DNA of 64,000 nucleotides from Thermoplasmata archaeon (GTDB lineage Archaea > Thermoplasmatota > Thermoplasmata > Lutacidiplasmatales > UBA184): positions 4,288 through 68,287 of the forward strand of contig JAKIVU010000005.1 of NCBI GenBank assembly GCA_022750375.1, written 5' to 3'. Positions 5,831 through 52,111 of this stretch are shown piece after piece. Each line of letters opens with the position of its first letter. Position 1 is the stretch's first letter. Made by a program: the position numbers and the translations under genes. The notes under the pieces are model-generated. The model was not told the origin of the DNA, searched no databases, and was given only the letters and a program-made list of their open reading frames with translations.

Positions 5831-6622
5831 CTACGGGGGCGGCACGGCGTCCGGTCCGTGGGCGAACGGCACGGGCCGTCCGCGGGTCGGCTCTCGGGCG
5901 ATCTCGAAGCGTTTCTGGATGAGGAACCGGAGATTGGTGTACCCGTCCCGCCAGCTGGAAAGCTTCGGTCGGCCCCACCGCTCCCCGTAACGGATCGGGA
6001 CCTCCACGACCCGCAATCCGCGCAGGATCGCTTCGATCTTCAGCTCCTCACTGAACGCCATCCCGTCCTGGCAGAGGTGTACCCGGTCGAGGACCTCCCG
6101 ACGGAAAACCCAGAAGCCGCTCTGACTGTCCTCGAGCGAACCGCCGGGCATCCCCCGGAGGAACCGGTGGAAGGCCACGTCGACAAAGAGGTTCAGCAGC
6201 CGGTTCCCGATCCGGTGCTCGGTGGTCATCGCGCGCCGATCGATGTACGCCATCCGATTCCCCGTCACAAAGTCGAGCCGCTCGTCGAGCAGACGCCGCA
6301 CGAGGGCCGGGATCGTCTCGACCGGATACGTCGCGTCGCCGTCCGCGGTCGCGATCACGTCGCCCCGGGCCGCGGCAAAGCCGGTCTTGTAGGCGCGACC
6401 GTACCCCTTGCGGAGTTCGACGAGTACGTGAGCCCCCTCAGCGGTCGCGATCGCCGCGGTGCCGTCCGTCGAGCCGCCGTCGACCACGACGGTCTCCCAG
6501 TCGATCGGAGTCGACCGGAAGAGGGTGGCGTTCGCCGCCTCCGTGCTCGCACGGAAGGTGCGCAGCACGTGCCCGATCGACTCGGACTCGTTGAGCGTGG
6601 GAACCACCAGCGTTGCGCGCAT
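5831..6622 (-). CDS. family 2 glycosyltransferase (dolichyl-phosphate hexose synthase-like)
   Basis: The conserved part starts at MRATLVVPTLNESESI (ATG at 6622). VVVDGGSTDGT, ADGDATYP (DxD) and a C-terminal KRFEIAR tail are present. The 150-aa upstream extension in the track is Arg/Gly-rich and overlaps archease. Confidence 0.85.
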   Translation of the reverse strand: MRATLVVPTLNESESIGHVLRTFRASTEAANATLFRSTPIDWETVVVDGGSTDGTAAIATAEGAHVLVELRKGYGRAYKTGFAAARGDVIATADGDATYPVETIPALVRRLLDERLDFVTGNRMAYIDRRAMTTEHRIGNRLLNLFVDVAFHRFLRGMPGGSLEDSQSGFWVFRREVLDRVHLCQDGMAFSEELKIEAILRGLRVVEVPIRYGERWGRPKLSSWRDGYTNLRFLIQKRFEIAREPTRGRPVPFAHGPDAVPPP

Positions 6623-6673
6623 CGACCCGCCGGTAAGGAGCCGACCACGCCTTAAGCCCGTCGAAAGCGTGGC

Positions 6674-7126
6674 GTGTCCACGAGCGCACCGGGGCGACGG
6701 CGGGCGAGCGCGCGCCGATGGGGAAGCTTCCCGACGACCGCGGACGTCGGGATCTGGGCGACCGGGCCGACGGACGCCGCGTTGTTCGAGGCGCTCGGCC
6801 TCGGGCTGTTCGCCCTGATCACCGACCGCGCGCGCGTCCGACCGCGGATGGAGCGTGCGGTGAGCGCGTCCGGCACCGACCCTTCGTCCCTCGTAGTGGC
6901 GTACTTGACCGAACTGCTCCTCCTTCAGCAGACGGAAGGGTTTCTCGCGCGCGAGATCCGCGCGCGCCCCGTGGGCGACCCCCCGACCGCGATCGTCGCG
7001 AGCGTGACCGGCGAGCCGTTCGACCCTGCGCGGCACACGGCGCGGACCGAGGTGAAGGCCGTCACCCTCCACGACCTCCAGGTCGACTTCGCCGCGGGGC
7101 GCGCCCGGGTGATCGTGGACATCTAG
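6674..7126 (+). CDS. archease (RtcB tRNA-ligase activator family)
   Basis: 150 aa with a GTG start. FPTTADVGIWATG...LFEALGLGLFALI near the N-terminus and VKAVTLHDLQV...ARVIVDI at the C-terminus match the archease pattern. Confidence 0.8.
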   Translation: MSTSAPGRRRASARRWGSFPTTADVGIWATGPTDAALFEALGLGLFALITDRARVRPRMERAVSASGTDPSSLVVAYLTELLLLQQTEGFLAREIRARPVGDPPTAIVASVTGEPFDPARHTARTEVKAVTLHDLQVDFAAGRARVIVDI

Positions 7127-7133
7127 GCCGGGC

Positions 7134-8270
7134 TCATGGCATCCGGTCCACGACCGCTCGCAACGCCATTCCCGGTGCGGGAAGGCGGCCCGCCTTGCCG
7201 AGGATCCGCTCGAGCGCGGCGAACGTCACGAGAAGGTCCGGCCAGTCGGCGATACCCATGTGTCCGATCCGGAAGATCTTTCCGGTGAGGGCACCCTGGC
7301 CGCCCTGCACCAGCACGTTGTACTCACGCTCGAGCGCTTTCCTGAGTTCGGCGTCCCCCATCCCGTCCGGATTGCGCACCGCCGTCACGGTGTCGGAGGC
7401 GTGTCGCCGTTCGGGGAAGAGCGAAAGACCGAGGGCGTCGACGGCGCCGCGCGCGGCCTCGGCGAGCCGGTGCGTGCGTTCGAGCCGGTGGACGAGACCT
7501 TCTTCGCGGAGAATTACGAGCGCCTCACGGAGGGCGAGGAACAGCGGCACGGCGGGCGTCCACGGGGTATCGTTCTTCTCCAGCGACTTGAGGTGGGCCG
7601 CGAGGTCGAGATAGAACGAGCCCGGATGCAGAGCGGCGACCGCCCGGTCCGAAAGATGCACGAGTGCGAGACCCGCCGGTGCCGCGAGGCCTTTCTGACT
7701 GCCGGCGACGAGCGCATCGATCCCCCAGCCGTCGATATCGACCGGGATCCCGGCGACCGCGCTGATCCCGTCGACCAGGAACAACGCCCCGGATTTCCGT
7801 ACCGAGGGAGCGAGCTGCGCGAGTTCGTTGGCGAGTCCGACGCTCGTCTCGTTGTGGACGACACAGACCGCGCCGACATCTCCCTTCTCCAGTTCCTGCT
7901 CGGCCGCGTCGCGCGCCAACGGCTGGCCCCACGGGGCGGTGACGGTCGTCACCTGCGAGGAGTAGCGGCGCACGATCTGGTCCGTGCGCTCGCCAAAGTT
8001 GCCGTTCGAGAGGACGAGCGTCCGGCGGTCCTTCGGGACGAGCGACGAGTACATCGCCTCCAGCCCCGCGGTGCCGCTGCCCGAGAGGATGAGCTGGTGG
8101 CCTTTCGCGCCGAACAGGACGGGCATCAACTCGCGGATCTCGGCGACGATCCCGTGGAAGTAGTCCCCCCGATGGTTCAGGGACGACATCGACATCGCGC
8201 GCAGCACGCGCGGGTGGATCCGCACGGGACCCGCGATGAGGAACGTGGTCGTCTCCGGGTCGAACGTCAT
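7134..8270 (-). CDS. class V aminotransferase (serine-glyoxylate / phosphoserine aminotransferase-like)
   Basis: 378 aa with GSGTAGLEA and SQKGLAAPAGLA (PLP-lysine region). Its start overlaps the stop of the upstream dehydrogenase by 4 nt. Confidence 0.85.
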   Translation of the reverse strand: MTFDPETTTFLIAGPVRIHPRVLRAMSMSSLNHRGDYFHGIVAEIRELMPVLFGAKGHQLILSGSGTAGLEAMYSSLVPKDRRTLVLSNGNFGERTDQIVRRYSSQVTTVTAPWGQPLARDAAEQELEKGDVGAVCVVHNETSVGLANELAQLAPSVRKSGALFLVDGISAVAGIPVDIDGWGIDALVAGSQKGLAAPAGLALVHLSDRAVAALHPGSFYLDLAAHLKSLEKNDTPWTPAVPLFLALREALVILREEGLVHRLERTHRLAEAARGAVDALGLSLFPERRHASDTVTAVRNPDGMGDAELRKALEREYNVLVQGGQGALTGKIFRIGHMGIADWPDLLVTFAALERILGKAGRLPAPGMALRAVVDRMP

Positions 8271-9217
8271 GGTCGTCCTCCGGGGGGCGGAACGAGCGAG
8301 CGCAGCGGTTCCCCGCGGACGGCTCGAAGCACTTCGTCCACGATCTCCGCACCGGCGCGGCCCTGGCCTTCGGCCGTCATGGCCCCGATGTGGGGGGTCG
8401 CGATCACGTTCGGCAGCTCCAACAGCTCACGGTTCATCGGCGGTTCCACCTCGAAAACGTCGAGCGCAGCACCCGCGAGCCGACCGGACTTGAGGGCGGC
8501 GAGAAGTGCGGCTTCGTCGACCAGAGGGCCGCGCGCGACGTTCAGCAGGAAGGCGCCCGGCTTCATCTGCGCGAACGCCCGGGCGTCGAGGAGGTGGCGG
8601 TTCTCGCTCGTCAGCGCAGCGTGGAGGCTGAGGAGGTCGGCGCGCTGGAGCACCGCCTCCCACGGGACGATCTCGGTCCGGTCTCCCGACGTCGTGACGT
8701 ACGGGTCGTAGGCGATCGTCGCCGTGCCGAACGGTTCGAGCCGACGGGCGACCTCTCGGGCGATCCGGCCGTAGCCGATGAATCCGACGGTCTTGCCGGC
8801 GAGCTCCCGGCCGTGGGCACCGCGCTCCCAACGACCCGCCTTGGTCGCGACGATCGTGGGGACGAGACCTCGAACGAGGAGCAGTGCGAGCGCGACCGTG
8901 AGCTCCGCGACGCTCGTCGTCGCGGCGGCCGGCGCGTTCACGACCCGGATCCCCCGCTGGGCGGCCGCGACCATGTCCACGTTGTCGACGCCGACCCCCG
9001 CCCGAGCGATGAGGGTCAACGACGGCGCGGCGCGGAGGAGCTCTGCGGTGACTTTCGTGCGGCTGCGGACGATGAGCGCGGTCGCTTCCGCGAGGTGACC
9101 CGGCAGCGCGGCCGGGTCCGCACTCGCGTCGACGACACGACACGGACCGGCGCGAAGACGTTCGAACGCGGCACGGTCGATCGGGTCGGCGACCACGACC
9201 AGCGGCGGCTCGGACAT
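8267..9217 (-). CDS. serA: D-3-phosphoglycerate dehydrogenase / D-isomer-specific 2-hydroxyacid dehydrogenase
   Basis: Start placed at MSEPPLVVVADPI (ATG 9217). Has the NAD fold GKTVGFIGYGRIAREVA and the catalytic region PNVIATPHIGA. Translationally coupled to the aminotransferase. The serA assignment rests on context. Confidence 0.8.
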   Translation of the reverse strand: MSEPPLVVVADPIDRAAFERLRAGPCRVVDASADPAALPGHLAEATALIVRSRTKVTAELLRAAPSLTLIARAGVGVDNVDMVAAAQRGIRVVNAPAAATTSVAELTVALALLLVRGLVPTIVATKAGRWERGAHGRELAGKTVGFIGYGRIAREVARRLEPFGTATIAYDPYVTTSGDRTEIVPWEAVLQRADLLSLHAALTSENRHLLDARAFAQMKPGAFLLNVARGPLVDEAALLAALKSGRLAGAALDVFEVEPPMNRELLELPNVIATPHIGAMTAEGQGRAGAEIVDEVLRAVRGEPLRSLVPPPGGRP

Positions 9218-9257
9218 CGGCCGCCCGACCACCGACCGGGGGAAAACGGTTTGGCCC

Positions 9258-10478
9258 CTAAGTGACGAGCACGGCGATCGCGTTCCAAACGTATGGCCCG
9301 GCCGCGAGGTTCGCACCGGGGGAGACCGGCCCCGACGAGACCGTGCCGACCATCGTGCCCACCGACTCCCCGTCGGTCCAGGGGCCCGTGTCGTAGTAGC
9401 CGTTCGTCCCGAGCAACGTCTCGTTCTCGATGGGCATGTACGGACCGGCGTTCCCTTGTCCGGTGACGGTGAAGATCATGAACGACGTGTTGGTCGCGGT
9501 CAGGTTGACACTCGCCGAGGTGCTATCGCCCGAGTTGTCGCCGATCACGAGGTTGCCGAGAGATAGCCCCACGGAGCTGTTGAGGTCGACGACCGACACG
9601 ACACCGCCCGCCGAGGTGTCGGTGTCGGTGAACTCCGCGGCAAAGCTCACGTTCGAGCCCCCGAGGACATCGAACGCCAGGAACATCTCCTGCGTGTGGT
9701 TCGAGGAGAAACTCGCGGTGCTCGTCTCAAGAACGAAAGAGTCGCCGGAAGAGTCGCAGACGGTAACATTGCTCGGCCCGCCGATATAAGCGGCGATGAA
9801 GCCGACGAACACCAGTAACGTGCTGCCCGGGCTCACCGAGATCGGAGGGGTGACCACGGTATTGGTCGCCCCCGCGGCCCACGCGTCGCTGTGGACGGAA
9901 ACCGAGTCGGCTGCGACCGAAGGGCCGGTGTCGTTCGAGGATCCGATCGACGCCGCCGTACTCGTCGGGCACGCCCCGGTGGTGCCGCCCGGTGCGGTGG
10001 ACCAGGAGATAGAGAATCCGGCCAGTCCGCCGGTCGCGTCGATGCAATAATCCCAGCTTCCGCCGGTATCGAGCTCGACCGCGGTCCCGTTCGTCAGTTC
10101 GATCGCCCCGTAGAATCCGTTGCAAGTGGCGGGCCAGCCGTACGAGTACTCCGGGTAGGCAGGGAGTACGTAGAGATCGGAGGCATTCGTTGGAAGAGCG
10201 AAGGTGGGTGCGACGGTCGCCGGCGGATTGGTGACCTCAAAGGCACCCGGTTCCCCGGTGCAATTGAACAGCGCCAGACCCCCACCGTAGGGGATCGGTC
10301 CGGTCCAGTCTTGCAGGGTCGAGCAACTGGCGGTCAACGACCCGGCCGGGGCCGTCGGGACCGACGGGAATGTCTGAGTGAACAACAGCGAGGACGCGGC
10401 GGCGAGGCCGACCACGACGGCGACCGCGCCGATCACGACGTAGAGGCTACCCCGGGGGATTCGGCCAAGGTGCGCCAT
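9258..10478 (-). CDS. secreted/surface protein with pilin-type (class III-like) signal peptide; heavily N-glycosylation-sequon-rich
   Basis: 406 aa. The N-terminus MAHLGRIPRG/SLYVVIGAVAVVVGLAAA has a charged head, a Gly, then a hydrophobic helix. About ten N-x-S/T sequons, Ser/Thr/Gly-rich. No recognisable enzymatic motif. Confidence 0.65.
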   Translation of the reverse strand: MAHLGRIPRGSLYVVIGAVAVVVGLAAASSLLFTQTFPSVPTAPAGSLTASCSTLQDWTGPIPYGGGLALFNCTGEPGAFEVTNPPATVAPTFALPTNASDLYVLPAYPEYSYGWPATCNGFYGAIELTNGTAVELDTGGSWDYCIDATGGLAGFSISWSTAPGGTTGACPTSTAASIGSSNDTGPSVAADSVSVHSDAWAAGATNTVVTPPISVSPGSTLLVFVGFIAAYIGGPSNVTVCDSSGDSFVLETSTASFSSNHTQEMFLAFDVLGGSNVSFAAEFTDTDTSAGGVVSVVDLNSSVGLSLGNLVIGDNSGDSTSASVNLTATNTSFMIFTVTGQGNAGPYMPIENETLLGTNGYYDTGPWTDGESVGTMVGTVSSGPVSPGANLAAGPYVWNAIAVLVT

Positions 10479-44657: not shown

Positions 44658-44663
44658 TTTATA
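44658..44663 (+). promoter_or_regulatory. TATA box for the pilus-like operon
   Basis: GTATTTATAGAC: the TTTATA core lies 35-40 nt upstream of the GTG at 44698 (59-64 nt upstream of the ATG at 44722). Confidence 0.45.
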
Positions 44664-44697
44664 GACGAACCGGGCCTAATTCTCGATACCCGGGGCC

Positions 44698-45798
44698 GTG
44701 CGGCCTCGGTGGGTCCGTCTGATGGGGGGAACGAACAACGTGACCGCGGGGCGGCGCTATCGCCGGGCCCGCCGGCTGCGCCACGAACGGCACGGCGTCG
44801 TCGCCGTGATCGGCACGCTCCTCGCGCTGCTCGTCTTCTTCGCTCTGTTCGGGATCTTCCTCACCCAGTACGTCCCCCTCTGGATGACCGACAACGAGGC
44901 GCTGCTGACCGCCCAGGCCTCGACCTCGTTCGCCAATTTCAAATCGTTCTCGGACGCCCAGTATGCCCTGGGAGGTCCCCAGTCGTACGGCACGCCGTTC
45001 GTCATCAGCAGCATGGGGGTCCCGTTGATCGCCCAGCCGACCCAGGGCTCCCTGATCTTCCTCCCGAGCACCTGCCCCGGGGGCCTCTACTCCACGGGGA
45101 GCTTCCCCGCCGGCACCGCCGCGGACTACGGCCAGCCGGTCAACCCGGCGTACTGCGTCTTCGACAACTACACCGAATCGGTCGGTCCGGGCGGCGTCCC
45201 CAACTACGCGCAACAGATCGCCACCGGCGCCCTCGAGCTCATCCTGCCCAACCGGTACTACACTCCGGAGACGTTCTTCTTCGAGGACGACGCGGTCATC
45301 CAGAGCCAGAGCACCGGCTACCAGGTGATGGCGTTCCCGCCCCCGCTGAATGTGACGGTCGCCGCCACCAACACGACCGTCTCCGACAGCTTCCTTCAAC
45401 TGTACGGCAACGCCTCCAGCGTCTTTGGCCAAGGCTCCGTGGAGGTCTACAGCCACCTGAAGTTCACCCAGCTCGTGACGTCCAACGGCGCCGGGTCGCC
45501 GTTCAAGTTCACCTTCGAGATCGGTACGCAGTACCCCTGCGCGTGGGACCCGTTCCTTTACCACGTGCTCACGAACAGCGGGATCGCTCCGGCAAACTAC
45601 CGCCTCGCCAACAATTTCACGTCAGGGAACCCGGCAACGCTCAAGGAAACGCCGCTCCTCAGCAACTCCTATACGGCGAGTTCGTGCTTCAATACGAACG
45701 GGGCGACCACGATCCTCTCGTTCTCGATCACGAATGTCAACTACGCTCAAGTCTATCAAGCAGGACTGGAAGTAGGAATGGGCGTAGGGAGCACCTAG
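44698..45798 (+). CDS. archaeal type IV pilin-like protein (Pilin_N-type class III signal peptide)
   Basis: Arg-rich head, then RHG/VVAVIGTLLALLVFFALFGIF resembling the archaeal pilin N-terminal domain. Large Ser/Thr/Asn-rich extracellular part with several N-x-S/T sequons. First gene of the ATPase/platform operon. Confidence 0.65.
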   Translation: MRPRWVRLMGGTNNVTAGRRYRRARRLRHERHGVVAVIGTLLALLVFFALFGIFLTQYVPLWMTDNEALLTAQASTSFANFKSFSDAQYALGGPQSYGTPFVISSMGVPLIAQPTQGSLIFLPSTCPGGLYSTGSFPAGTAADYGQPVNPAYCVFDNYTESVGPGGVPNYAQQIATGALELILPNRYYTPETFFFEDDAVIQSQSTGYQVMAFPPPLNVTVAATNTTVSDSFLQLYGNASSVFGQGSVEVYSHLKFTQLVTSNGAGSPFKFTFEIGTQYPCAWDPFLYHVLTNSGIAPANYRLANNFTSGNPATLKETPLLSNSYTASSCFNTNGATTILSFSITNVNYAQVYQAGLEVGMGVGST

Positions 45799-45802
45799 GA
45801 CG

Positions 45803-47458
45803 ATGGCCGGCGGATCCGTACGAGTGAAGATCCCTCGGGCCGGTGTGCCCGAGGCCGAAACCTCCCCCCTCGACACCTCCCGCTCCCTCGAGACCCCGAC
45901 CGACGTGCCGGGGACGTTCATCACGGCGATGCCCCCGCTCCCGGAGCCGACGATGAAGGAGCTCGAGGTGAACGCGGTGAACCCGCCGTACTCGTACTCG
46001 CGCGTCAGCTACAACGACCGGACGAAGGAGTACCTCTACGAGGTCATCGAACCCCAGCTCACGCCCCGCGAACGCCAGCTCGTCGACCACCTGAAGGCGA
46101 CGTTGTCGATGATCCTGGGCAGCGACGTCGGCACCCTCTCGACCGCCGACAAACGCCTGTACCTTCGGGGAGAGGCGGAGGAGTACTTCCGGAGCCGGGG
46201 GATCTCGCTCAGCCCGATCTCGATGGAACGGATCGTCTACTACGTGCTCCGCGATTTCGTCGGGTATGGGCCCGTCGACGCGTTGATCCTGGACCCCCAG
46301 GTCGAGGACATCTCGTGCGATGGCGTCGACGTCCCGTTGTTCATCTTCCACGGAAAGTACGAGTCGATGAAGACGAACGTCGTCTTCGCGGACGAGAACG
46401 CCACGAACTCGTTCATCGTCATGCTCGGCCAGCGGTGTTCGAAGTCCGTCAGCGTCTCCGCCCCGATCCTGGATGGGACGACCCCCGAGGGCCACCGGGT
46501 CCAGGCGACGTACGCCCGGGAGATCACGACCCGGGGAGCGAGCTTCACGATCCGCCGATTCAAGGAACGGCCGTTCACCCCCGTCGACCTCGTCGTCATG
46601 GGCAGCGCCAGCGAGGAGATGGTCGCCTACTTCTGGCTCGCGGCCGAGCAGGGGGAATCGCTCATCATCTGCGGCGGGCCGGCCGCGGGGAAGACCAGCA
46701 CGCTCAACGCCATCGCGCTCTTCATTCCCCCGACCGCGAAGATCGTATCGATCGAGGATACCCGCGAGGTCAACCTTCCGCACGAGAACTGGATCCCCGG
46801 GGCCACCCGCAGCGGCACCGGCGACCGCGGCCCCGACGGGAAAGCCGCGGGGGAGGTCGACATGTTCGACCTCGTTCGAGCCGCCCTGCGGCAGCGCCCG
46901 AACTACATCATCGTGGGAGAGGTCCGGGGCAAGGAGACGTACACCATGTTCCAGGCGATGGCGACGGGCCACACGACCTACTCGACCATGCACGCGGACA
47001 GCGTGAAATCGATGGTCAACCGGCTCGAGAACCCGCCGATCAACACGCCGCGGATCCTCCTCTCCGCCCTGAACAACGTCATCATCCAGATCCAGACCCG
47101 CACCGACAAGGGCGTCGTCCGGCGCCTGAAGCAGGTGCTCGAGATCGTCGGGTTCGAACCCGAGACGAACGAGCTGATCACGAACACCGTCTACGAGTGG
47201 GACCCCGCGACCGACGGATTCGTGTTCAAGGGGCACTCGTTCCTGTTCGACAAGATCATGGAACTCAAGAACTTCACACCGGACGAGATGGAGGCCGAGT
47301 TCCAGCGCCGGAGCGCGGTCATCCGATACCTCGTCCAGCACCAGATCACCGACTACCGTCAGCTCTGGCGGACGATCGCGCAGTACTACCGGGACCCGGC
47401 CGAGGTCATGGCGCGGATCGGTGCGTTGAGCGCCACCGCCACCCCCAAGGAGGGATAG
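45803..47458 (+). CDS. type II/IV secretion-family ATPase (FlaI/PilB/TadA-like), copy 1
   Basis: 551 aa. Walker A ICGGPAAGKTSTLNA, IVSIEDTREVNL, Walker B IIVGEVRGKE, and His box TTYSTMHA. Confidence 0.9.
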   Translation: MAGGSVRVKIPRAGVPEAETSPLDTSRSLETPTDVPGTFITAMPPLPEPTMKELEVNAVNPPYSYSRVSYNDRTKEYLYEVIEPQLTPRERQLVDHLKATLSMILGSDVGTLSTADKRLYLRGEAEEYFRSRGISLSPISMERIVYYVLRDFVGYGPVDALILDPQVEDISCDGVDVPLFIFHGKYESMKTNVVFADENATNSFIVMLGQRCSKSVSVSAPILDGTTPEGHRVQATYAREITTRGASFTIRRFKERPFTPVDLVVMGSASEEMVAYFWLAAEQGESLIICGGPAAGKTSTLNAIALFIPPTAKIVSIEDTREVNLPHENWIPGATRSGTGDRGPDGKAAGEVDMFDLVRAALRQRPNYIIVGEVRGKETYTMFQAMATGHTTYSTMHADSVKSMVNRLENPPINTPRILLSALNNVIIQIQTRTDKGVVRRLKQVLEIVGFEPETNELITNTVYEWDPATDGFVFKGHSFLFDKIMELKNFTPDEMEAEFQRRSAVIRYLVQHQITDYRQLWRTIAQYYRDPAEVMARIGALSATATPKEG

Positions 47459-47463
47459 CGACC

Positions 47464-48441
47464 GTGCCCGCGACTGCCACGCTCCCGGCATCCGGAGTCA
47501 CCCGCGTGGCCGCCGACCCGGCCGTCCGTCCGGTCCGGCTGAAGCGAGGGCAGCAGCCGACCCACTCCACCCTGACCGGATTCCAGCGGTGGGCGTGGAG
47601 GACGTTCCGGGCCCGCGTGCTCGCGAAGCCCCCGGACCCGGTCCTCGAGGAGAACCTGGTCAAGGCCCATATGCGGATCCGGGCCGACGAGTTCATGGCG
47701 ACCGTCTACGCGACGACGGTGGTGGTGGCGATCGCGACGATCGTCGCGGGCGCCGTGATCGGTTTCATCTTCATCGACATGGGACAGTTCCTCTTCGGGG
47801 TCCTCATCGCGGTCGCCCTCCCGGTGTTCGGCTCGCTCGGTTCGTTCTTCGGTCTCCAGGGCAGTCCGGGCGGCACGGCGAAATCCCGGGGCCGGAAGAT
47901 CGACCAGAAGATCAGCCCGGCGATGAGCTTCGTGAGCGCGATGGCGTCGGCCGACGTGAACGTCGACCAGATCTTCAAGGAGCTCGGACGCCAGAAGATC
48001 TACGGCGAGGTCGCGAACGAGGCGTCGTGGATCTCCCGCGACACCGAGCTGCTGGGCGTCGATATCCTGACCGCGATCCGCAACGGCGCGCAGCGCAGCC
48101 CGTCGAAGCGGTTCCAGGACTTCCTGCAGGGCGTCGTGACCACCGCGACGAGCGGCGGCCAGTTGAAGCCGTACTTCCTGCTCAAGGCCGAGCAGTACGA
48201 GCGGGAGAACAAGCTCGCGCAGCTCCAGCGCGTCGAGACGATGGGCCTGCTCGCGGAGACGTTCGTCACCGTCGTGGTGGCGTTCCCGCTGTTCCTGGTC
48301 ATCATCATCGCGATCTTCGCGATCATCGGCGGCGGCGGCACGTTCATGCTCGACATCCTCTGGGCGATCGTTGGCCTGATGATCCCGCTCTCCCAGTTCG
48401 GTTTCATTTTCTTTATGTATACGCTCGCGCAGGAGATGTAA
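47464..48441 (+). CDS. T2SSF-domain platform protein (FlaJ/TadB-like), half 1
   Basis: The GTG at 47464 is in frame with the end of the 708-aa track ORF. TM pair, cytoplasmic helical T2SSF domain (ISPAMSFVSAMASADVNVDQIFKELG...), and a C-terminal TM pair. Confidence 0.75.
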   Translation: MPATATLPASGVTRVAADPAVRPVRLKRGQQPTHSTLTGFQRWAWRTFRARVLAKPPDPVLEENLVKAHMRIRADEFMATVYATTVVVAIATIVAGAVIGFIFIDMGQFLFGVLIAVALPVFGSLGSFFGLQGSPGGTAKSRGRKIDQKISPAMSFVSAMASADVNVDQIFKELGRQKIYGEVANEASWISRDTELLGVDILTAIRNGAQRSPSKRFQDFLQGVVTTATSGGQLKPYFLLKAEQYERENKLAQLQRVETMGLLAETFVTVVVAFPLFLVIIIAIFAIIGGGGTFMLDILWAIVGLMIPLSQFGFIFFMYTLAQEM

Positions 48442-48442
48442 G

Positions 48443-49420
48443 ATGGCGACCGCAACGGTTCCGGCGTCCGTCCGCAAGGTCAAGTCGCTGACCAGCGCGG
48501 AGGTGAACACCGACGAGTCGTCCGGGATCACGCGAGAGACGTGGCTGCTGATCGGCGGCATGGCGGTCGCGATCGTGCTGTGGATCATCGCGGGACTCAA
48601 CTACACCGGGTCGGTGGACTGGGAGATGCGGCCCGGCGAAGGACCGGGAGCGAACCCGGCGATCGACTTCTTCGTCATCGGCCTGCTCGCCCTCATCGCC
48701 CCGTACGGGTTCGCGATGAGCGCGAAGCTCCGCCGCATCTCGAACATCGAAGAGCGACTCCCCGACTTTCTCCGCGACGTCGCCGAAGCCGGTCGGTTCG
48801 GGATGACCCTGCCCGACGCGATCGTCGTCGCGAGCGGGGGACGGTACGGCCTCCTGACAGACGAGATCAAGAAGATGGCGAGCCAGCTCGAGTGGGGCGT
48901 CCCCGTCGCCACCTCGCTCCGGCTCTTCGAGGAGCGCGTACCGACCCCGCTCGTCCAGCGGGTCGTCTCGATCATCACCCGGGCGAACGAAGCCGGCGGG
49001 AACGTCGCGGACGTGCTGACGATGGTCGCCCACGATACCCGCGAGGCCCAACTCGAGGCCCAGGGCCGTCAGATCTCGATGCTGACCTACGTGACGGTCA
49101 TCTACATCGCGTTCTTCGTCTTCCTCGTCACGATCTACATCATGGCGGCGGTCTTCCTGCCGCAGATGATCCTCGCCGGCCAGGGCGTCGCCTCGTCGTC
49201 CCTGTCGGGGGCGGGCGCCTTGACGCTGCAGTTCACCTTCGTGCCGGTCCTGTTCCTCGCGTTCATGGTCGCCGTCATCGTCCACGCGGTCGGGGACGGG
49301 GTCATGGCCGGGATCCTGTTCAACGGACGGATCGCGGAGGGCCTGCAGCACGCGACCATCATGCTCGCGACCGGCTGGCTGATCATGCGCTTCGTCGTGC
49401 CGATCCTGAACGTGGGGTAA
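48443..49420 (+). CDS. T2SSF-domain platform protein (FlaJ/TadC-like), half 2
   Basis: 325 aa. LPDFLRDVAEAGRFGMTLPDAI...VQRVVSIITRANEAGGNVADVL is a T2SSF domain flanked by TM helices. It starts 1 nt after the previous stop. Confidence 0.8.
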   Translation: MATATVPASVRKVKSLTSAEVNTDESSGITRETWLLIGGMAVAIVLWIIAGLNYTGSVDWEMRPGEGPGANPAIDFFVIGLLALIAPYGFAMSAKLRRISNIEERLPDFLRDVAEAGRFGMTLPDAIVVASGGRYGLLTDEIKKMASQLEWGVPVATSLRLFEERVPTPLVQRVVSIITRANEAGGNVADVLTMVAHDTREAQLEAQGRQISMLTYVTVIYIAFFVFLVTIYIMAAVFLPQMILAGQGVASSSLSGAGALTLQFTFVPVLFLAFMVAVIVHAVGDGVMAGILFNGRIAEGLQHATIMLATGWLIMRFVVPILNVG

Positions 49421-49433
49421 CGGAGCGGAATCG

Positions 49434-51206
49434 ATGGCAGGATCGGTCGCACCCCAACCCGAGGGCTCGGAGCCGGACGTGCCCGAGCCCGAGGAGATCC
49501 CCGCGGCGCGCAAGCGCAGTTCCTCCTCGGCGTGGCTCCGCCTCGGCGCCTCCATGCGCAAGGGGTCGTCCGACCCCCGCCCCGTCAAGCTCGCCCGACT
49601 CGGCGTCTCGGGCCAGGGCAGTCAGGGGGAGATCACCCCGATCCCTCCGCTCAACGACCCCGGTCTGAAGGAGCTCGATCTGGCCCCGATCCGTCCCGGT
49701 GTCTCGTTCATCCGGATCACGTACCACAACACGCGGAACGAGTACCTCTACGAGGTCATCGAGCCCCCGCTCTCCCCGATCGAGAAGGACCTGACCGAAC
49801 GGCTCCGGATCGTGCTCATCGACGACTTCCAGCCGCTCACCGAGATCGACCCCGAGTCGAAGCGTCGGGAGCTGCGTCGGATGGTCGACCACAAGCTCCA
49901 GGAGTGGGAGCTCGGCCCGGGCCCGACCACCAAGGGCCGGATCCTCTACCACCTCGAACGGGACTTCATCGGCTACGGGATCGTCGACGTCCCGATGACC
50001 GATACCGAGGTCGAGGACATCTCGTGCGACGGGGTCGGCATTCCCCTGTTCATCTACCACCGGAAGTACGGCTCGATCCGCTCGAACATGAAGTTCCACG
50101 ACTCGAAGGAGCTCGACGACTACGTCGTCTGGCTCGCCCAGCGGTCGGGGAAGCACATCTCCGTCGCGAGCCCGATCCTGGACGCGACCGTCCCGGACGG
50201 CTCCCGTCTCCAGGCGACGCTCGGAACCCACGTGACGAAGCGCGGCAGCTCGTTCACGATCCGCAGGTTCCGCGACAATCCGTTCACGCCGGTCGACCTG
50301 CTCAAGTTCAAGACGATGAGTCCGGAGATGATGGCGTATCTCTGGATCTCGATCGAGAACGGCCAGTCGATGATGGTCTGCGGCGGCACGGCGAGCGGCA
50401 AGACCACGACCCTCAACGCGACCCTCCTGTTCATCCCGCCGCAGATGAAGATCGTCTCGATCGAGGATACCCGCGAGCTCAACCTGCCGCACGAGAACTG
50501 GGTGCCGTCCCTTACGCGCGCCGGGTTCGGCGCGAAGAACCTCACGAGCGGGAAGGCCCCCGGCGAGATCGACATGTTCGACCTGCTGGCGGCGGCGCTC
50601 CGTCAGCGCCCCCAGTACCTGATGGTCGGAGAGGTGCGGGGCGCGGAGGCGTTCATCGTCTTCCAGGCGATGGCGACGGGGAAGACCTGCTACACCACGT
50701 TCCACGCGGAGAGCGTCAGCGCGATGGTCCACCGGATGGAGAACCCGCCGATCTCGCTGCCGCGCTCGCTCGTCTCGGCGCTGAACCTCGTGCTCCTCCA
50801 GCGGCAGGTGAAGGTCGGGACGAAGATGACCCGGCGCGTCCAGTCGCTCACCGAGATCGTCGGTCTCGACCCCGAGACGAACGAACTGATCACGAACTCC
50901 GTCTACTCGTGGAACCCCGCGGACGACACGTTCCTCTACAGCGGCCACTCGTACGTCTACGAGCGGGTCGCGATGATGAAGAACCTCTCGATGAAGGAGA
51001 TGGAGCGCGAGGTCCGCAACCGCGCAGAGATGATGGAGTACCTCGTCTTCCGTGACGCGCAGGCGACCCGCCTGAAGCCGTTCACGCACCGCGACGTCGG
51101 CCAGCTGGTCGCCTTCTACTACAAGGAGCCGGAACGGGCGCTCTCCGAAGCCCGCGCCGAGCTCGCGAAGGCGAAATCGGCGGCGCCGGCCCCCGCGGCG
51201 CGATAA
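49434..51206 (+). CDS. type II/IV secretion-family ATPase (FlaI/PilB/TadA-like), copy 2
   Basis: 590 aa. Walker A VCGGTASGKTTTLNA, IVSIEDTRELNL, LMVGEVRGAE and TCYTTFHA. Clearly paralogous to 45803-47458 along the whole core. Confidence 0.9.
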   Translation: MAGSVAPQPEGSEPDVPEPEEIPAARKRSSSSAWLRLGASMRKGSSDPRPVKLARLGVSGQGSQGEITPIPPLNDPGLKELDLAPIRPGVSFIRITYHNTRNEYLYEVIEPPLSPIEKDLTERLRIVLIDDFQPLTEIDPESKRRELRRMVDHKLQEWELGPGPTTKGRILYHLERDFIGYGIVDVPMTDTEVEDISCDGVGIPLFIYHRKYGSIRSNMKFHDSKELDDYVVWLAQRSGKHISVASPILDATVPDGSRLQATLGTHVTKRGSSFTIRRFRDNPFTPVDLLKFKTMSPEMMAYLWISIENGQSMMVCGGTASGKTTTLNATLLFIPPQMKIVSIEDTRELNLPHENWVPSLTRAGFGAKNLTSGKAPGEIDMFDLLAAALRQRPQYLMVGEVRGAEAFIVFQAMATGKTCYTTFHAESVSAMVHRMENPPISLPRSLVSALNLVLLQRQVKVGTKMTRRVQSLTEIVGLDPETNELITNSVYSWNPADDTFLYSGHSYVYERVAMMKNLSMKEMEREVRNRAEMMEYLVFRDAQATRLKPFTHRDVGQLVAFYYKEPERALSEARAELAKAKSAAPAPAAR

Positions 51207-51238: not shown

Positions 51239-52111
51239 ATGGACCGTCCGTTCGCCCGCCTCCCGACCGGTCGCGGCCGCACGGTCACGCTCTGGCACGA
51301 GGACGCGGTCGAGGGCATGGCCGGCCGGCTCGGACGGCGGCGCGCGGACGTGGTCGTCACGAGTCCCCCGTACAATCTCGGCGTGCCGTACCGCTCCTAC
51401 GCCGACTCGCGGCCGCGCGCGCAGTACCTCGCGTGGCTCGGGTCGGTCGCCGCCGCGGTCGACCGGGTCCTCGCCCGGAACGGTTCGTTCTTCCTGAACA
51501 TCGGCGGACGGCCGAAGGACCCGTGGCTTCCGTGGGACGTCGCGCGGGAGGTCGGCCGGCGTTTCGTGCTCCAGAATGTCGTCCACTGGGTCAAGTCGAT
51601 CGCGATCGACCGGGGGTCCGCGGGCCGCGCCGCCGCGCTCGAGGGAGACCTCGCGCTCGGCCACTACAAGCCGCTCGTTTCGGACCGGTACCTCCACGGG
51701 GCGCACGAGTACGTCTTTCAGTTCACCCGGCGGGGGGACGTCCGGCTCGACCGCCTGGCGATCGGCGTACCGTACCAGGACAAGTCGAACGTCGACCGGT
51801 GGCAGCGTGCCGGAACGGACAAGCGCTGCCGAGGGAACACGTGGTTCCTCCCGTACTCCACGATCCGCGAGCGCGCGCGAGACCGTCCCCATCCCGCGAC
51901 GTTCCCCCCGGAGCTCCCGGAGTGGTGCCTGCGACTCCACGGTCTCGGACGGGTCCGTCTCGCCGTGGACCCGTTCGTCGGGATCGGCGCCTCCGCGGTC
52001 GCGGCGGTGCGCTGCGGGGTGGATTTCGTCGGATTCGAACTGGACGCCGAGTACCTGCGGGTCGCGGCGACGCGCGTGCGGGCGGAGCGGCGGCCCGGGC
52101 GGCCGGCCTAG
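51239..52111 (+). CDS. DNA methyltransferase, N4/N6 (beta-class, SPPY motif IV before motif I)
   Basis: 290 aa. VVVTSPPYNLG (motif IV) near the N-terminus, HPATFPPELPEWC, and DPFVGIGASAVAA (motif I) near the C-terminus. Confidence 0.85.
   Translation: MDRPFARLPTGRGRTVTLWHEDAVEGMAGRLGRRRADVVVTSPPYNLGVPYRSYADSRPRAQYLAWLGSVAAAVDRVLARNGSFFLNIGGRPKDPWLPWDVAREVGRRFVLQNVVHWVKSIAIDRGSAGRAAALEGDLALGHYKPLVSDRYLHGAHEYVFQFTRRGDVRLDRLAIGVPYQDKSNVDRWQRAGTDKRCRGNTWFLPYSTIRERARDRPHPATFPPELPEWCLRLHGLGRVRLAVDPFVGIGASAVAAVRCGVDFVGFELDAEYLRVAATRVRAERRPGRPA

What the first reader, a model, noticed from the sequence alone, without database searches (positions are those of the whole stretch)
44698..51206. Type IV pilus-like operon with two paralogous ATPases bracketing a split platform protein
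Five tightly spaced plus-strand genes, with gaps of 4, 5, 1 and 13 nt, run in this order:
- a pilin-like protein with a Pilin_N-type signal (RHG/VVAVIGTLLALLVFF)
- ATPase 1 (Walker A GGPAAGKTS)
- two separate single-T2SSF-domain membrane proteins
- ATPase 2 (Walker A GGTASGKTT)

The two ATPases align over their whole length and look more than half identical by eye (for example VEDISCDGV..PLFI.H.KY, SFTIRRF...PFTPVDL, IVSIEDTRE.NLPHENW, MFDL..AALRQRP.Y..VGEVRG).

A platform split into two genes resembles bacterial TadB/TadC and archaeal Epd-type loci. A duplicated motor flanking the platform is less usual. It raises the possibility of separate assembly and retraction or translocation ATPases. 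No prepilin peptidase or minor pilins are evident in the operon.
Basis: partly seen in the sequence, partly recalled or inferred. Interest (0 to 1): 0.6.

Follow-up and report, generated by a model that had tools for sequence, protein, structure and literature searches.

The report
Thermoplasmata two-motor, split-platform pilus operon
This is a real five-gene operon for the membrane machine that builds an archaeal type IV pilus, with two motor ATPases around a platform protein split into two genes. The same layout is standard in this class of archaea and was already described in Cuniculiplasma and Aciduliprofundum, so it is a new example of a known machine whose second motor is still unexplained.

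Summary
Five co-directional, tightly spaced genes encode:
- a pilin-like protein (g1)
- ATPase E1
- the N-half (Fa) and C-half (Fb) of a PilC/FlaJ-type platform
- ATPase E2

E1 and E2 are 49% identical, and both keep all catalytic motifs.

The host is an uncultured soil/peat Thermoplasmata archaeon. The order E1-Fa-Fb-E2 is conserved in about 80 species of its family, in every other class-level locus I fetched, and in Cuniculiplasma divulgatum. There it is CSP5_0712-0715, the published CdiP pilus machinery. Aciduliprofundum has it too. In a tree, the window's E1 falls in one starred clade with the Cuniculiplasma E1, so the duplication is ancient, not a decaying copy.

- E2 carries a conserved Lys/Arg in place of the first His-box histidine, and E1 never does. 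The same signature occurs in other Thermoplasmatota classes.
- g1 is a DUF7289-like protein with a long N-terminal helix and a beta-rich head.
- A PibD/FlaK-type peptidase is encoded elsewhere in the genome.
- The operon has a conserved TATA box and a covarying leader hairpin.

Why there are two motors remains open.

The parts
44658..44663 (+). TTTATA box, the likely archaeal promoter of the operon
   Evidence: Read directly. A TATA-like hexamer lies about 64 nt (59-68 in most) upstream of the conserved ATG in 55 of 57 orthologous loci. Function is inferred, not shown.
44664..44688 (+). Conserved block GAC GAA CCG GGC CTA ATT CTC between the TATA box and the hairpin. It is the probable initiation region or a regulator-binding region.
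   Evidence: Nearly invariant 'GAAYCGGGCCTAATTC' in the alignment of 51 orthologous leaders. Its role is unknown.
44695..44716 (+). Leader hairpin (CCGGGGCC-GUGC-GGCCUCGG) ending a few bases before the start codon
   Evidence: Each of 51 orthologous leaders folds into a hairpin, typically of 7-11 bp, at the same place. The arm sequences differ between loci, for example CACGUUCC/GGAAUGUG and CUGUAACCUC/GAGGCUACAG. Mean z-score against dinucleotide shuffles is -1.8. RNAalifold on the MAFFT alignment found nothing because the arms were misaligned.
44722..45798 (+). g1: a pilin-like, DUF7289-related membrane protein (358 aa from ATG 44722; an alternative GTG start is at 44698). It has an Arg-rich 24-aa leader, a G|VVAVIGTLLALLVFF junction, a long N-terminal helix and a beta-rich head.
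   Evidence: Conserved start and N-terminal motif in 57 orthologues. AlphaFold2 model: pLDDT 85.4, helix 25-82, then beta strands. Class-level orthologues hit DUF7289, one of them above the cut-off. No PDB fold match. It is the fastest-evolving gene of the locus (35-81% identity within the family).
45803..47458 (+). E1: FlaI/GspE2-family secretion ATPase with Walker A GGPAAGKTS, a canonical His box (TGH...MH) and a PilB3_C tail. Orthologue of CdiPE1.
   Evidence: Pfam T2SSE and PilB3_C. NCBIfam FlaI at 406.8 bits, below the cut-off of 550. Best PDB hits are 2OAP at 1.2e-116 and FlaI at about 1e-82. The E1 clade has 99/98 support and includes the Cuniculiplasma copy.
47464..48441 (+). Fa: N-terminal half of a PilC/FlaJ-type platform (one T2SSF domain). 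Orthologue of CdiPFa.
   Evidence: Pfam T2SSF 1.7e-13. Matches positions 5-243 of 555 in ArlJ/FlaJ and 56-250 of 484 in UpsF.
48443..49420 (+). Fb: C-terminal half of the platform (one T2SSF domain). Orthologue of CdiPFb.
   Evidence: Pfam T2SSF 3.7e-18. Matches positions 215-450 of 465 in ArlJ/FlaJ and 285-478 of 484 in UpsF. Only 25% identical to Fa over 109 residues.
49434..51206 (+). E2: paralogous FlaI/GspE2-family ATPase with Walker A GGTASGKTT. The first His-box histidine is replaced by Lys (TGK...FH). Orthologue of CdiPE2.
   Evidence: Pfam T2SSE 1.8e-33. FlaI model 408.7 bits, below the cut-off. 2OAP 5.7e-122. Motif table. At the first His-box position, E2-type copies have Lys in 98, Arg in 8, His in 4 and Thr in 1; E1-type copies have His in 103 of 104.
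51239..52111 (+). SPPY-type methyltransferase gene. It is a conserved downstream neighbour and may be co-transcribed. It is not a pilus component.
   Evidence: A 32-nt gap without a T-run separates it from E2. It lies directly after E2 in essentially all family-level loci that extend that far (61-92% identity) and in L114-L117. It is not found after E2 in the other class-level loci.

Best explanation
The locus is the assembly-machinery operon of an archaeal type IV (adhesive) pilus of the CdiP type. This is the type found throughout class Thermoplasmata.

Transcription most likely starts behind a conserved TATA box and runs through g1-E1-Fa-Fb-E2.

How it most likely works (all inferred):
- Fa and Fb, the two halves of a PilC/FlaJ-like protein, together form the membrane platform.
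- The FlaI/GspE2-type ATPases E1 and E2 dock on its cytoplasmic face. They use ATP to drive processed pilins from the membrane into the filament.
- Prepilins are cut by a PibD/FlaK-type peptidase encoded elsewhere in the genome.
- The main pilins are also encoded elsewhere, as in Cuniculiplasma. They were not recovered in this 69%-complete assembly.
- g1 is a pilin-like accessory subunit, such as a minor or priming pilin or a surface adhesin.

E1 and E2 are ancient paralogues, both kept catalytically intact, and they differ in a fixed way. E1 has the canonical His box. E2 has Lys or Arg at the first His-box position. They are therefore most likely non-redundant partners of one machine.

Shown: gene content, orthology, age of the duplication, and motif conservation.
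Inferred: co-transcription, the platform heterodimer, the pilin role of g1, and any division of labour between E1 and E2.
For: Domains and split platform. Paralogy at 49% identity.

Synteny:
- In about 80 family-level loci.
- In 15 further loci from 13 families of the class.
- In Thermoplasmataceae and Aciduliprofundum-like genomes.

Identity of G110 as C. divulgatum S5:
- Exact genome size of 1,938,699 bp.
- Its pilin is identical to PDB 8REY.
- Two pilin genes lie 862 bp apart, as published.
Its locus therefore equals CSP5_0712-0715 and CdiPE1/Fa/Fb/E2.

Tree: the E1 clade is starred at 99/98 and 100/100. E2 monophyly is not excluded. Both paralogue subtrees mirror the species groups.

Catalytic motifs are intact in both paralogues across the class.

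Closest solved relatives are afGspE2 and FlaI.

Peptidase candidate in trans: Arc_PepC_II at 38.5 bits (above the cut-off of 29.9), plus FlaK_Arch at 2.6e-15. It has a DLRDRE motif and a GGADAK motif.

Pilin_N pilins are encoded in trans in relatives.

g1 model and family. Promoter and leader.
Against: - No filament, transcript or protein data exist for this organism.
- No Pilin_N pilin was found in this assembly.
- g1 has no significant fold match to any solved pilin. Its 24-residue Arg-rich leader is long for a class III signal, and position -2 is His in this genome. It could be an uncleaved membrane anchor.
- Nothing here shows that E1 and E2 act on the same platform or at the same time.
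- In a Thermoplasma-like genome (L130), E1 has lost the Walker A lysine and Walker B. So both activities are not always needed.
Confidence: 0.85

Rival explanations
1. Division of labour as in bacterial PilB/PilT. One ATPase (a homohexamer) extends the pilus. The other (also a homohexamer) retracts it. They take turns on the Fa/Fb platform.
For: - Both paralogues are catalytically intact and have been kept for a very long time.
- They carry fixed differences in Walker A and the His box.
- Bacteria solved extension and retraction by duplicating this ATPase (PMC6711533).
Against: - C. divulgatum, with the orthologous machine, adheres but shows no twitching (PMC12448462).
- Both paralogues have the same full-length FlaI/GspE2 architecture.
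- Their matches to the PilT family are weak, at 1e-10 to 1e-12.
- Archaeal Aap and bacterial Tad pili retract with a single ATPase.
Confidence: 0.2
2. E1 and E2 form one mixed (for example 3+3) hexamer. Its two kinds of subunit match the two different platform halves Fa and Fb.
For: - The two genes co-occur strictly and were co-inherited in one tightly coupled operon.
- Their subtrees mirror each other.
- The E2-specific change lies in the His box. In PilB this motif sits at the contact between neighbouring subunits and mediates inter-chain cooperativity (PMC5424180).
- A Thermoplasma-like genome has a catalytically dead E1 next to an E2 that keeps its Walker A lysine. This recalls mixed rings with inactive subunits.
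- Heterohexamers of type IV filament ATPases have been proposed.
Against: - There is no direct evidence.
- Mirrored trees are expected from vertical inheritance alone.
- Some Thermoplasmatota lineages have a single ATPase with the same split platform (L149, L150). A mixed ring is therefore not required by the split.
Confidence: 0.25
3. The machine is not mainly a pilus builder. It is a short-pseudopilus or surface-display system that mounts large class III-signal proteins, such as g1 and its paralogue on contig C6, on the cell surface, like a bindosome.
For: - g1 (358 aa) and a second DUF7289-like protein of about 520 aa (own genome, C6:35308-36873) have pilin-like N-termini but large heads.
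- No small pilin was found in this assembly.
- 'Functionalised' type IV filament machines have been proposed for archaea (PMC13705601).
Against: - The orthologous C. divulgatum machinery is assigned to the long CdiP pili, and its major pilin is PDB 8REY.
- Relatives of this genome encode 1-6 Pilin_N pilins in trans.
- BasE and BasF matches are far below their cut-offs.
- Thermoplasmataceae keep the machinery but lack g1.
Confidence: 0.1
4. It is an archaellum (motility) operon, or the second ATPase is a recent decaying duplicate.
For: FlaI is the best NCBIfam model for both ATPases.
Against: - FlaI scores of 407-409 bits are below the equivalog cut-off of 550.
- The operon has five genes, and none gave an archaellin, ArlH or ArlC-G family match.
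- A separate clade of ATPases in relatives is distinct from E1 and E2. I take these to be archaellum ATPases, but I did not check their neighbouring genes.
- E1 and E2 are only 49% identical, each forms an old clade, and both keep all motifs.
Confidence: 0.02

Closest known systems
CdiP pilus machinery of Cuniculiplasma divulgatum (CdiPE1, CdiPFa, CdiPFb, CdiPE2 = CSP5_0712-0715; PMC12448462, PMC5155288)
   Same: - Same four core genes in the same order, tightly coupled (L123).
- E1 is orthologous to E1 (starred clade).
- The E2 copies share the His-box Lys/Arg change.
- In C. divulgatum the main pilins are encoded elsewhere. The same holds in relatives of this genome.
   Different: - Only 40-41% identity in the ATPases and 32-42% in the platform halves.
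- The window has the extra first gene g1, which is absent upstream of the Cuniculiplasma operon.
- Cuniculiplasma E2 has Arg where the window has Lys.
- The host here is an uncultured, high-GC soil/peat lineage.
Aciduliprofundum boonei locus with two ATPases and one pilA-like pilin gene (Makarova et al. 2016, PMC4858521)
   Same: The order g1-E1-Fa-Fb-E2 is shared, including a g1 homologue. It is seen in L127, from a closed genome of 1,486,778 bp that I take to be A. boonei from memory of its size. ATPases are 61-62% identical.
   Different: That paper only noted the locus in passing.
Euryarchaeal PilB/PilC systems ('clade 2' or 'system 2', e.g. Haloferax PilB3-C3, Archaeoglobus GspE2 / PDB 2OAP)
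   Same: - The ATPases are of this type: 2OAP is the best solved relative, and E1 has a PilB3_C tail.
- g1 relatives hit DUF7289, a family that also rings in Haloferax volcanii and Methanosarcina acetivorans.
   Different: System 2 is described with a single platform gene and a single ATPase per locus (PMC13705601). Here the platform is split and the ATPase is doubled.
Epd pili of Methanococcus and bacterial Tad pili (TadA/CpaF, TadB, TadC)
   Same: The platform is encoded as two single-T2SSF genes.
   Different: - There is one ATPase in Epd/Tad, against two here.
- E1 and E2 match CpaF only at 1e-38 to 1e-42, against 1e-116 to 1e-122 for 2OAP. The split here is therefore probably a separate fission.
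- No short Tad/Epd-type pilins were seen.
Bacterial T4aP motor set PilB / PilT / PilU
   Same: More than one paralogous hexameric ATPase serves one filament machine.
   Different: - PilT and PilU are a distinct, shorter clade dedicated to retraction.
- E1 and E2 are both full-length FlaI/GspE2-like, and neither is PilT-like.
- No retraction is known for the orthologous pilus.

Membership tests
CdiP-type pilus machinery (Thermoplasmata E1-Fa-Fb-E2) | Two FlaI/GspE2-family ATPase genes in one operon | tested here: met
   T2SSE in both. 49% identity over 509 aa. These are the only two T2SSE genes in the assembly.
CdiP-type pilus machinery (Thermoplasmata E1-Fa-Fb-E2) | Platform split into an N-half gene and a C-half gene lying between the ATPase genes | tested here: met
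   Fa matches the first half and Fb the second half of ArlJ/FlaJ and UpsF. The order is confirmed.
CdiP-type pilus machinery (Thermoplasmata E1-Fa-Fb-E2) | Orthology of each gene to the C. divulgatum genes | tested here: met
   Same order in L123, which is C. divulgatum S5. The E1 clade is starred. E2 monophyly has 71/95 support and is not rejected.
CdiP-type pilus machinery (Thermoplasmata E1-Fa-Fb-E2) | Main pilin of Pilin_N type, encoded away from the machinery | tested here: inconclusive
   No Pilin_N match in this 69%-complete assembly. There are 1-6 per genome in relatives.
CdiP-type pilus machinery (Thermoplasmata E1-Fa-Fb-E2) | Assembles an adhesive, non-twitching pilus | not testable with these tools
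   Known only for C. divulgatum.
Archaeal type IV filament core | Class III signal peptidase (PibD/FlaK/EppA) in the genome | tested here: met
   Own genome, C16:79921-80800 (- strand). Arc_PepC_II at 38.5 bits, above the cut-off of 29.9. Peptidase_A24 is weak. FlaK_Arch 2.6e-15. Both Asp motifs are present.
Archaeal type IV filament core | Filament subunit with a class III signal peptide | tested here: inconclusive
   g1 has the basic leader, Gly at -1, a hydrophobic stretch and a helix-plus-beta-head model. However, it has no pilin family or fold match.
Epd/Tad-type ('system 1') pili | TadA/CpaF/EpdL-type ATPase | tested here: not met
   CpaF matches at 1e-38 to 1e-42, against 2OAP at 1e-116 to 1e-122 and FlaI at about 1e-82 to 1e-87.
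Epd/Tad-type ('system 1') pili | Platform encoded by two genes | tested here: met
Archaellum | ArlI/FlaI equivalog together with archaellins and ArlH, ArlF, ArlG, ArlC-E in the locus | tested here: not met
   FlaI model scores of 407-409 bits are below the cut-off of 550. The five operon genes gave no archaellin, ArlH or ArlC-G family match.
PilB/PilT extension-retraction pair | One paralogue belongs to the PilT/PilU retraction clade | tested here: not met
   pilT_fam matches are 9.5e-12 and 6.9e-10, against a cut-off of 319 bits. Both paralogues share the FlaI/GspE2 architecture.

The most novel reading that the evidence does not exclude
E1 and E2 are an obligate, functionally asymmetric pair that arose before the Thermoplasmatota classes split. 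It is marked by a fixed His-to-Lys/Arg change at the subunit-contact position of the E2 His box. They work either as a mixed hexamer or as alternating hexamers on a heterodimeric Fa/Fb platform. If so, this would be an independent archaeal invention of a multi-ATPase type IV filament motor. It would contradict the recent statement that archaeal systems keep a single ATPase per machine.
Probability: 0.3. Interest if true: 0.65.

Novelty: new member of a known kind. Interest (0 to 1): 0.33.

Why it matters
The dual ATPase of the CdiP machinery was called 'unique' and 'enigmatic' in 2025. A 2026 survey states that archaeal type IV filament systems keep one ATPase per system.

The comparative picture here differs:
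- The two-motor, split-platform layout is the ancestral norm of a whole class.
- It recurs in other Thermoplasmatota classes in two gene orders.
- It carries a fixed sequence signature that separates the two motors.

This does not explain the second motor. It does give clear, testable handles:
- the E2 His-box Lys/Arg
- the catalytically dead E1 in a Thermoplasma-like genome
- lineages that have a single ATPase

For this particular window, the finding is an ordinary member of that family.

Tried and rejected
- Fold search of the g1 model against the PDB gave no significant match (best E 0.09). A profile search of g1 against PDB sequences gave only chance hits.
- Pfam on the window's own g1 gave nothing useful. 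Only more distant orthologues reach DUF7289.
- Pilin_N search of the own genome found nothing.
- My FlaFind-like regular-expression scan of all ORFs was too noisy in this 68% GC genome to name pilins (71 hits). Only g1 and C6:35308-36873 were backed by a profile of the g1 N-terminus.
- RNAalifold on a MAFFT alignment of the leaders predicted no structure, because the hairpin arms were misaligned. Folding each sequence singly showed the hairpin.
- Phylum-level tree: the backbone is an unresolved polytomy. It cannot say whether the pairs in other classes share the E1/E2 duplication. The His-box signature suggests that some do.
- Rejected: archaellum, Epd/Tad membership, and recent pseudogenising duplicate. 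Reasons are given in the membership tests and rival explanations.
Full report
**Observation**

The + strand of 44698-51206 carries five ORFs:
- g1: 44698-45798
- E1: 45803-47458
- Fa: 47464-48441
- Fb: 48443-49420
- E2: 49434-51206

The gaps between them are 4, 5, 1 and 13 nt.

- Pfam finds a T2SSE domain in E1 and E2, and one T2SSF domain in each of Fa and Fb.
- NCBIfam places Fa on the first half and Fb on the second half of ArlJ/FlaJ and UpsF. The platform is therefore genuinely split into two genes.
- E1 and E2 are 49% identical and 70% similar over 509 residues.
- Fa and Fb are only remotely alike, 25% over 109 residues. This is expected for the two internal repeats of a PilC-like protein.

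The only corrections are the identity (just under half) and the probable start of g1.

**Host and conservation**

- The window lies in a 0.93 Mb assembly that is 69% complete.
- Its relatives are soil, peat and sediment 'Thermoplasmata archaeon' MAGs, one of them labelled Candidatus Lutacidiplasmatales.
- In about 80 species-level relatives the whole neighbourhood is syntenic: a divergent ACT-domain gene, then g1-E1-Fa-Fb-E2, then a methyltransferase.
- Fifteen loci from 13 families of the class keep g1-E1-Fa-Fb-E2, or E1-Fa-Fb-E2 where g1 was not detected. Each gene best matches its positional counterpart.
- Of 251 genomes drawn from the class, 201 have an E1 match at E <= 1e-40, and about 195 have two or more.
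- The genomes that lack it cluster in family f8 and a few genera of f20.

**Identity with a published system**

Genome G110 is Cuniculiplasma divulgatum S5. Three results show this:
- Its single contig has exactly 1,938,699 bp, the size in Table 1 of PMC5155288.
- It encodes two pilin genes 862 bp apart, as published.
- The first of these is identical over its mature 135 residues to PDB 8REY.

Its locus L123 has E1-Fa-Fb-E2, tightly coupled. This matches three published descriptions:
- PMC5155288 lists CSP5_0712 and CSP5_0715 as ATPases and CSP5_0713-0714 as TadC-like. It says the arrangement resembles Aciduliprofundum.
- PMC12448462 names the genes CdiPE1, CdiPFa, CdiPFb and CdiPE2. It assigns them to the CdiP adhesive pilus, calls the two ATPases unique, and reports no twitching.
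- Makarova et al. 2016 noted two ATPases in one A. boonei locus.

L127 comes from a 1,486,778-bp closed genome that I take to be A. boonei, from memory of its size. It has g1-E1-Fa-Fb-E2 with 61-62% identical ATPases.

**Age of the duplication**

I built a maximum-likelihood tree of 64 ATPases.
- All first-position copies, including the window's and that of Cuniculiplasma, fall in one clade with 99/98 support.
- The second-position copies form two groups. Their union is not excluded.
- Within each paralogue the branching follows the same species groups.
- A second tree that includes other Thermoplasmatota classes again gives E1 100/100 and E2 71/95. Its backbone is a polytomy.

The second ATPase is therefore an old paralogue and not a decaying recent copy.

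**Motifs**

Walker A, the Asp box, Walker B with the catalytic Glu, and the second His-box histidine are kept in both paralogues across the class. The exception is the Thermoplasma-like locus L130 (see 'Exceptions and variants'). Two fixed differences separate the paralogues.

| Feature | E1-type copies | E2-type copies |
|---|---|---|
| Walker A | GKTS in 90 of 103 | GKTT in 109 of 112 |
| First His-box position | His in 103 of 104 | Lys 98, Arg 8, His 4, Thr 1 |

In Geobacter PilB the His box sits at the contact between neighbouring subunits, and the paper's authors suggest it mediates inter-chain cooperativity. The second histidine binds the gamma-phosphate (PMC5424180). The E2 change thus touches subunit coupling and not phosphate binding. 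This is an inference.

The same signature (GKTS + TGH in one copy, GKTT + TGK in the other) occurs in other classes of the phylum:
- in loci ordered E1-Fa-Fb-E2 (L142, L143)
- in loci ordered E1-E2-Fa-Fb (L145, L146)

This suggests that the duplication predates those classes, although the tree cannot confirm it.

**Exceptions and variants**

- Other lineages (L144, L147, L148) have tandem pairs in which both copies carry TGH and group together. These look like separate, younger duplications.
- Some lineages have one ATPase with the same split platform (L149, L150).
- In a Thermoplasma-like genome (L130), E1 has lost the Walker A lysine and Walker B.

**Family placement**

- Both ATPases are closest to Archaeoglobus GspE2 (2OAP; 1.2e-116 and 5.7e-122).
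- Next comes Sulfolobus FlaI (about 1e-82 to 1e-87).
- CpaF of Tad pili is far behind (1e-38 to 1e-42).
- E1 has a PilB3_C tail.
- The FlaI equivalog cut-off is not reached: 407-409 bits against 550.

The motors are therefore of the euryarchaeal PilB ('system 2') type. The split platform is a trait otherwise listed for Epd/Tad ('system 1'). The 2026 survey states that the ATPase is single-copy per subsystem. This class is an exception to that statement.

**g1**

- The conserved start is ATG 44722. Most of the 57 orthologues start 'MG..', 24 residues before the G|V junction.
- The leader is Arg-rich. Position -1 is Gly or Ala, and position -2 is usually Arg. In this genome it is His.
- An AlphaFold2 model from 38 orthologues (pLDDT 85.4) has a 58-residue N-terminal helix followed by a beta-rich head. 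This is the general shape of a type IV pilin.
- No solved structure matches it significantly.
- More distant orthologues hit Pfam DUF7289, one above the cut-off. That family also rings in Haloferax volcanii and Methanosarcina acetivorans.
- g1 is the fastest-evolving gene of the locus.
- It is absent upstream of the Cuniculiplasma operon.

I read g1 as a pilin-like accessory subunit, with about two-thirds confidence. An uncleaved membrane anchor is the alternative.

**Components encoded elsewhere**

- A PibD/FlaK-type peptidase candidate lies on contig C16 of the own genome. Arc_PepC_II is above its cut-off, FlaK_Arch gives 2.6e-15, and both Asp motifs are present.
- No Pilin_N pilin was found in this incomplete assembly. 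Relatives have 1-6 of them away from the operon, as in Cuniculiplasma.
- A second DUF7289-like protein with a similar N-terminus lies at C6:35308-36873.

**Regulatory region**

- TTTATA at 44658-44663 lies 64 nt before ATG 44722. An equivalent box is present in 55 of 57 orthologous loci at nearly the same distance.
- A nearly invariant block follows it.
- Next comes a hairpin at 44695-44716. Its arms differ in sequence between species but stay complementary.
- Only 32 nt, with no T-run, separate E2 from the methyltransferase gene.

**Mechanism**

The supported core is an ordinary archaeal type IV pilus assembly machine. Processed pilins are fed into a filament by a platform formed from Fa plus Fb, powered by FlaI/GspE2-type ATPases.

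The role of the second ATPase is open. I rank the options as follows:
1. A mixed or cooperating pair (0.25).
2. An extension/retraction split (0.2).
3. A display machine for large pilin-like proteins (0.1).

Archaellum and pseudogene readings are excluded.

**Verdict**

The locus is a new member of a known kind. Earlier agents of this scan reached the same filing for sister loci in other genomes. I reached it independently and tested it here.

Noticed in passing
window 44695-44716 (and 44664-44688): There is a conserved leader hairpin just upstream of the g1 start codon. Its arm sequences differ between 51 orthologous loci but stay complementary. It is preceded by a nearly invariant block, GAAYCGGGCCTAATTC, right after the TATA box. 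It may be a translational or stability control element of the pilus operon.
   Followed up: partly
window 51239-52111: The SPPY-type methyltransferase gene sits directly downstream of E2 in essentially all family-level loci that extend that far, and in L114-L117. It is not there in the other families of the class. The gap is 32 nt and has no T-run, so it may be co-transcribed with the pilus genes.
   Followed up: partly
own genome G000, contig C6:35308-36873 (+), outside the window: A second large protein of about 520 aa has a g1-like N-terminus (RGRRG|QVSAVATILGLLLVV) and a sub-threshold DUF7289 match (23.5 bits). The ORF contains a masked or unknown stretch.
   Followed up: partly
own genome G000, contig C16:79921-80800 (-), outside the window: This is a candidate class III signal peptidase. 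Arc_PepC_II is above its cut-off, the FlaK match is partial, and DLRDRE and GGADAK motifs are present. Relatives have similar ORFs of 300-345 aa.
   Followed up: partly
L130 (G117, 1,584,804-bp closed genome, probably Thermoplasma volcanium by size, from memory): 6139-10229: This is a very divergent, shortened version of the E1-Fa-Fb-E2 locus. E1 has lost the Walker A lysine (GPHTELKYS) and Walker B. E2 keeps its Walker A lysine and is otherwise very divergent.
   Followed up: no
L144-L148 (other Thermoplasmatota classes): Here the gene order is E-E-Fa-Fb, with the two ATPases in tandem. In L145 and L146 the pair carries the E1/E2 signature. In L144, L147 and L148 both copies are TGH-type and group together in the tree, which suggests repeated, independent ATPase duplications in this phylum.
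   Followed up: partly
L118 (G003:C3:792000-806000): Some same-genus genomes carry a third, distinct T2SSE ATPase (about 40% identical to E2). Nearby is a 478-aa ORF with a weak Fb match (24%) that may be a platform gene. This would be a second type IV filament system. It was not found in this window's assembly.
   Followed up: no
L113 (G040:C6:43-1814): E2 is split into two overlapping ORFs. This is either a frameshift or an assembly error.
   Followed up: no
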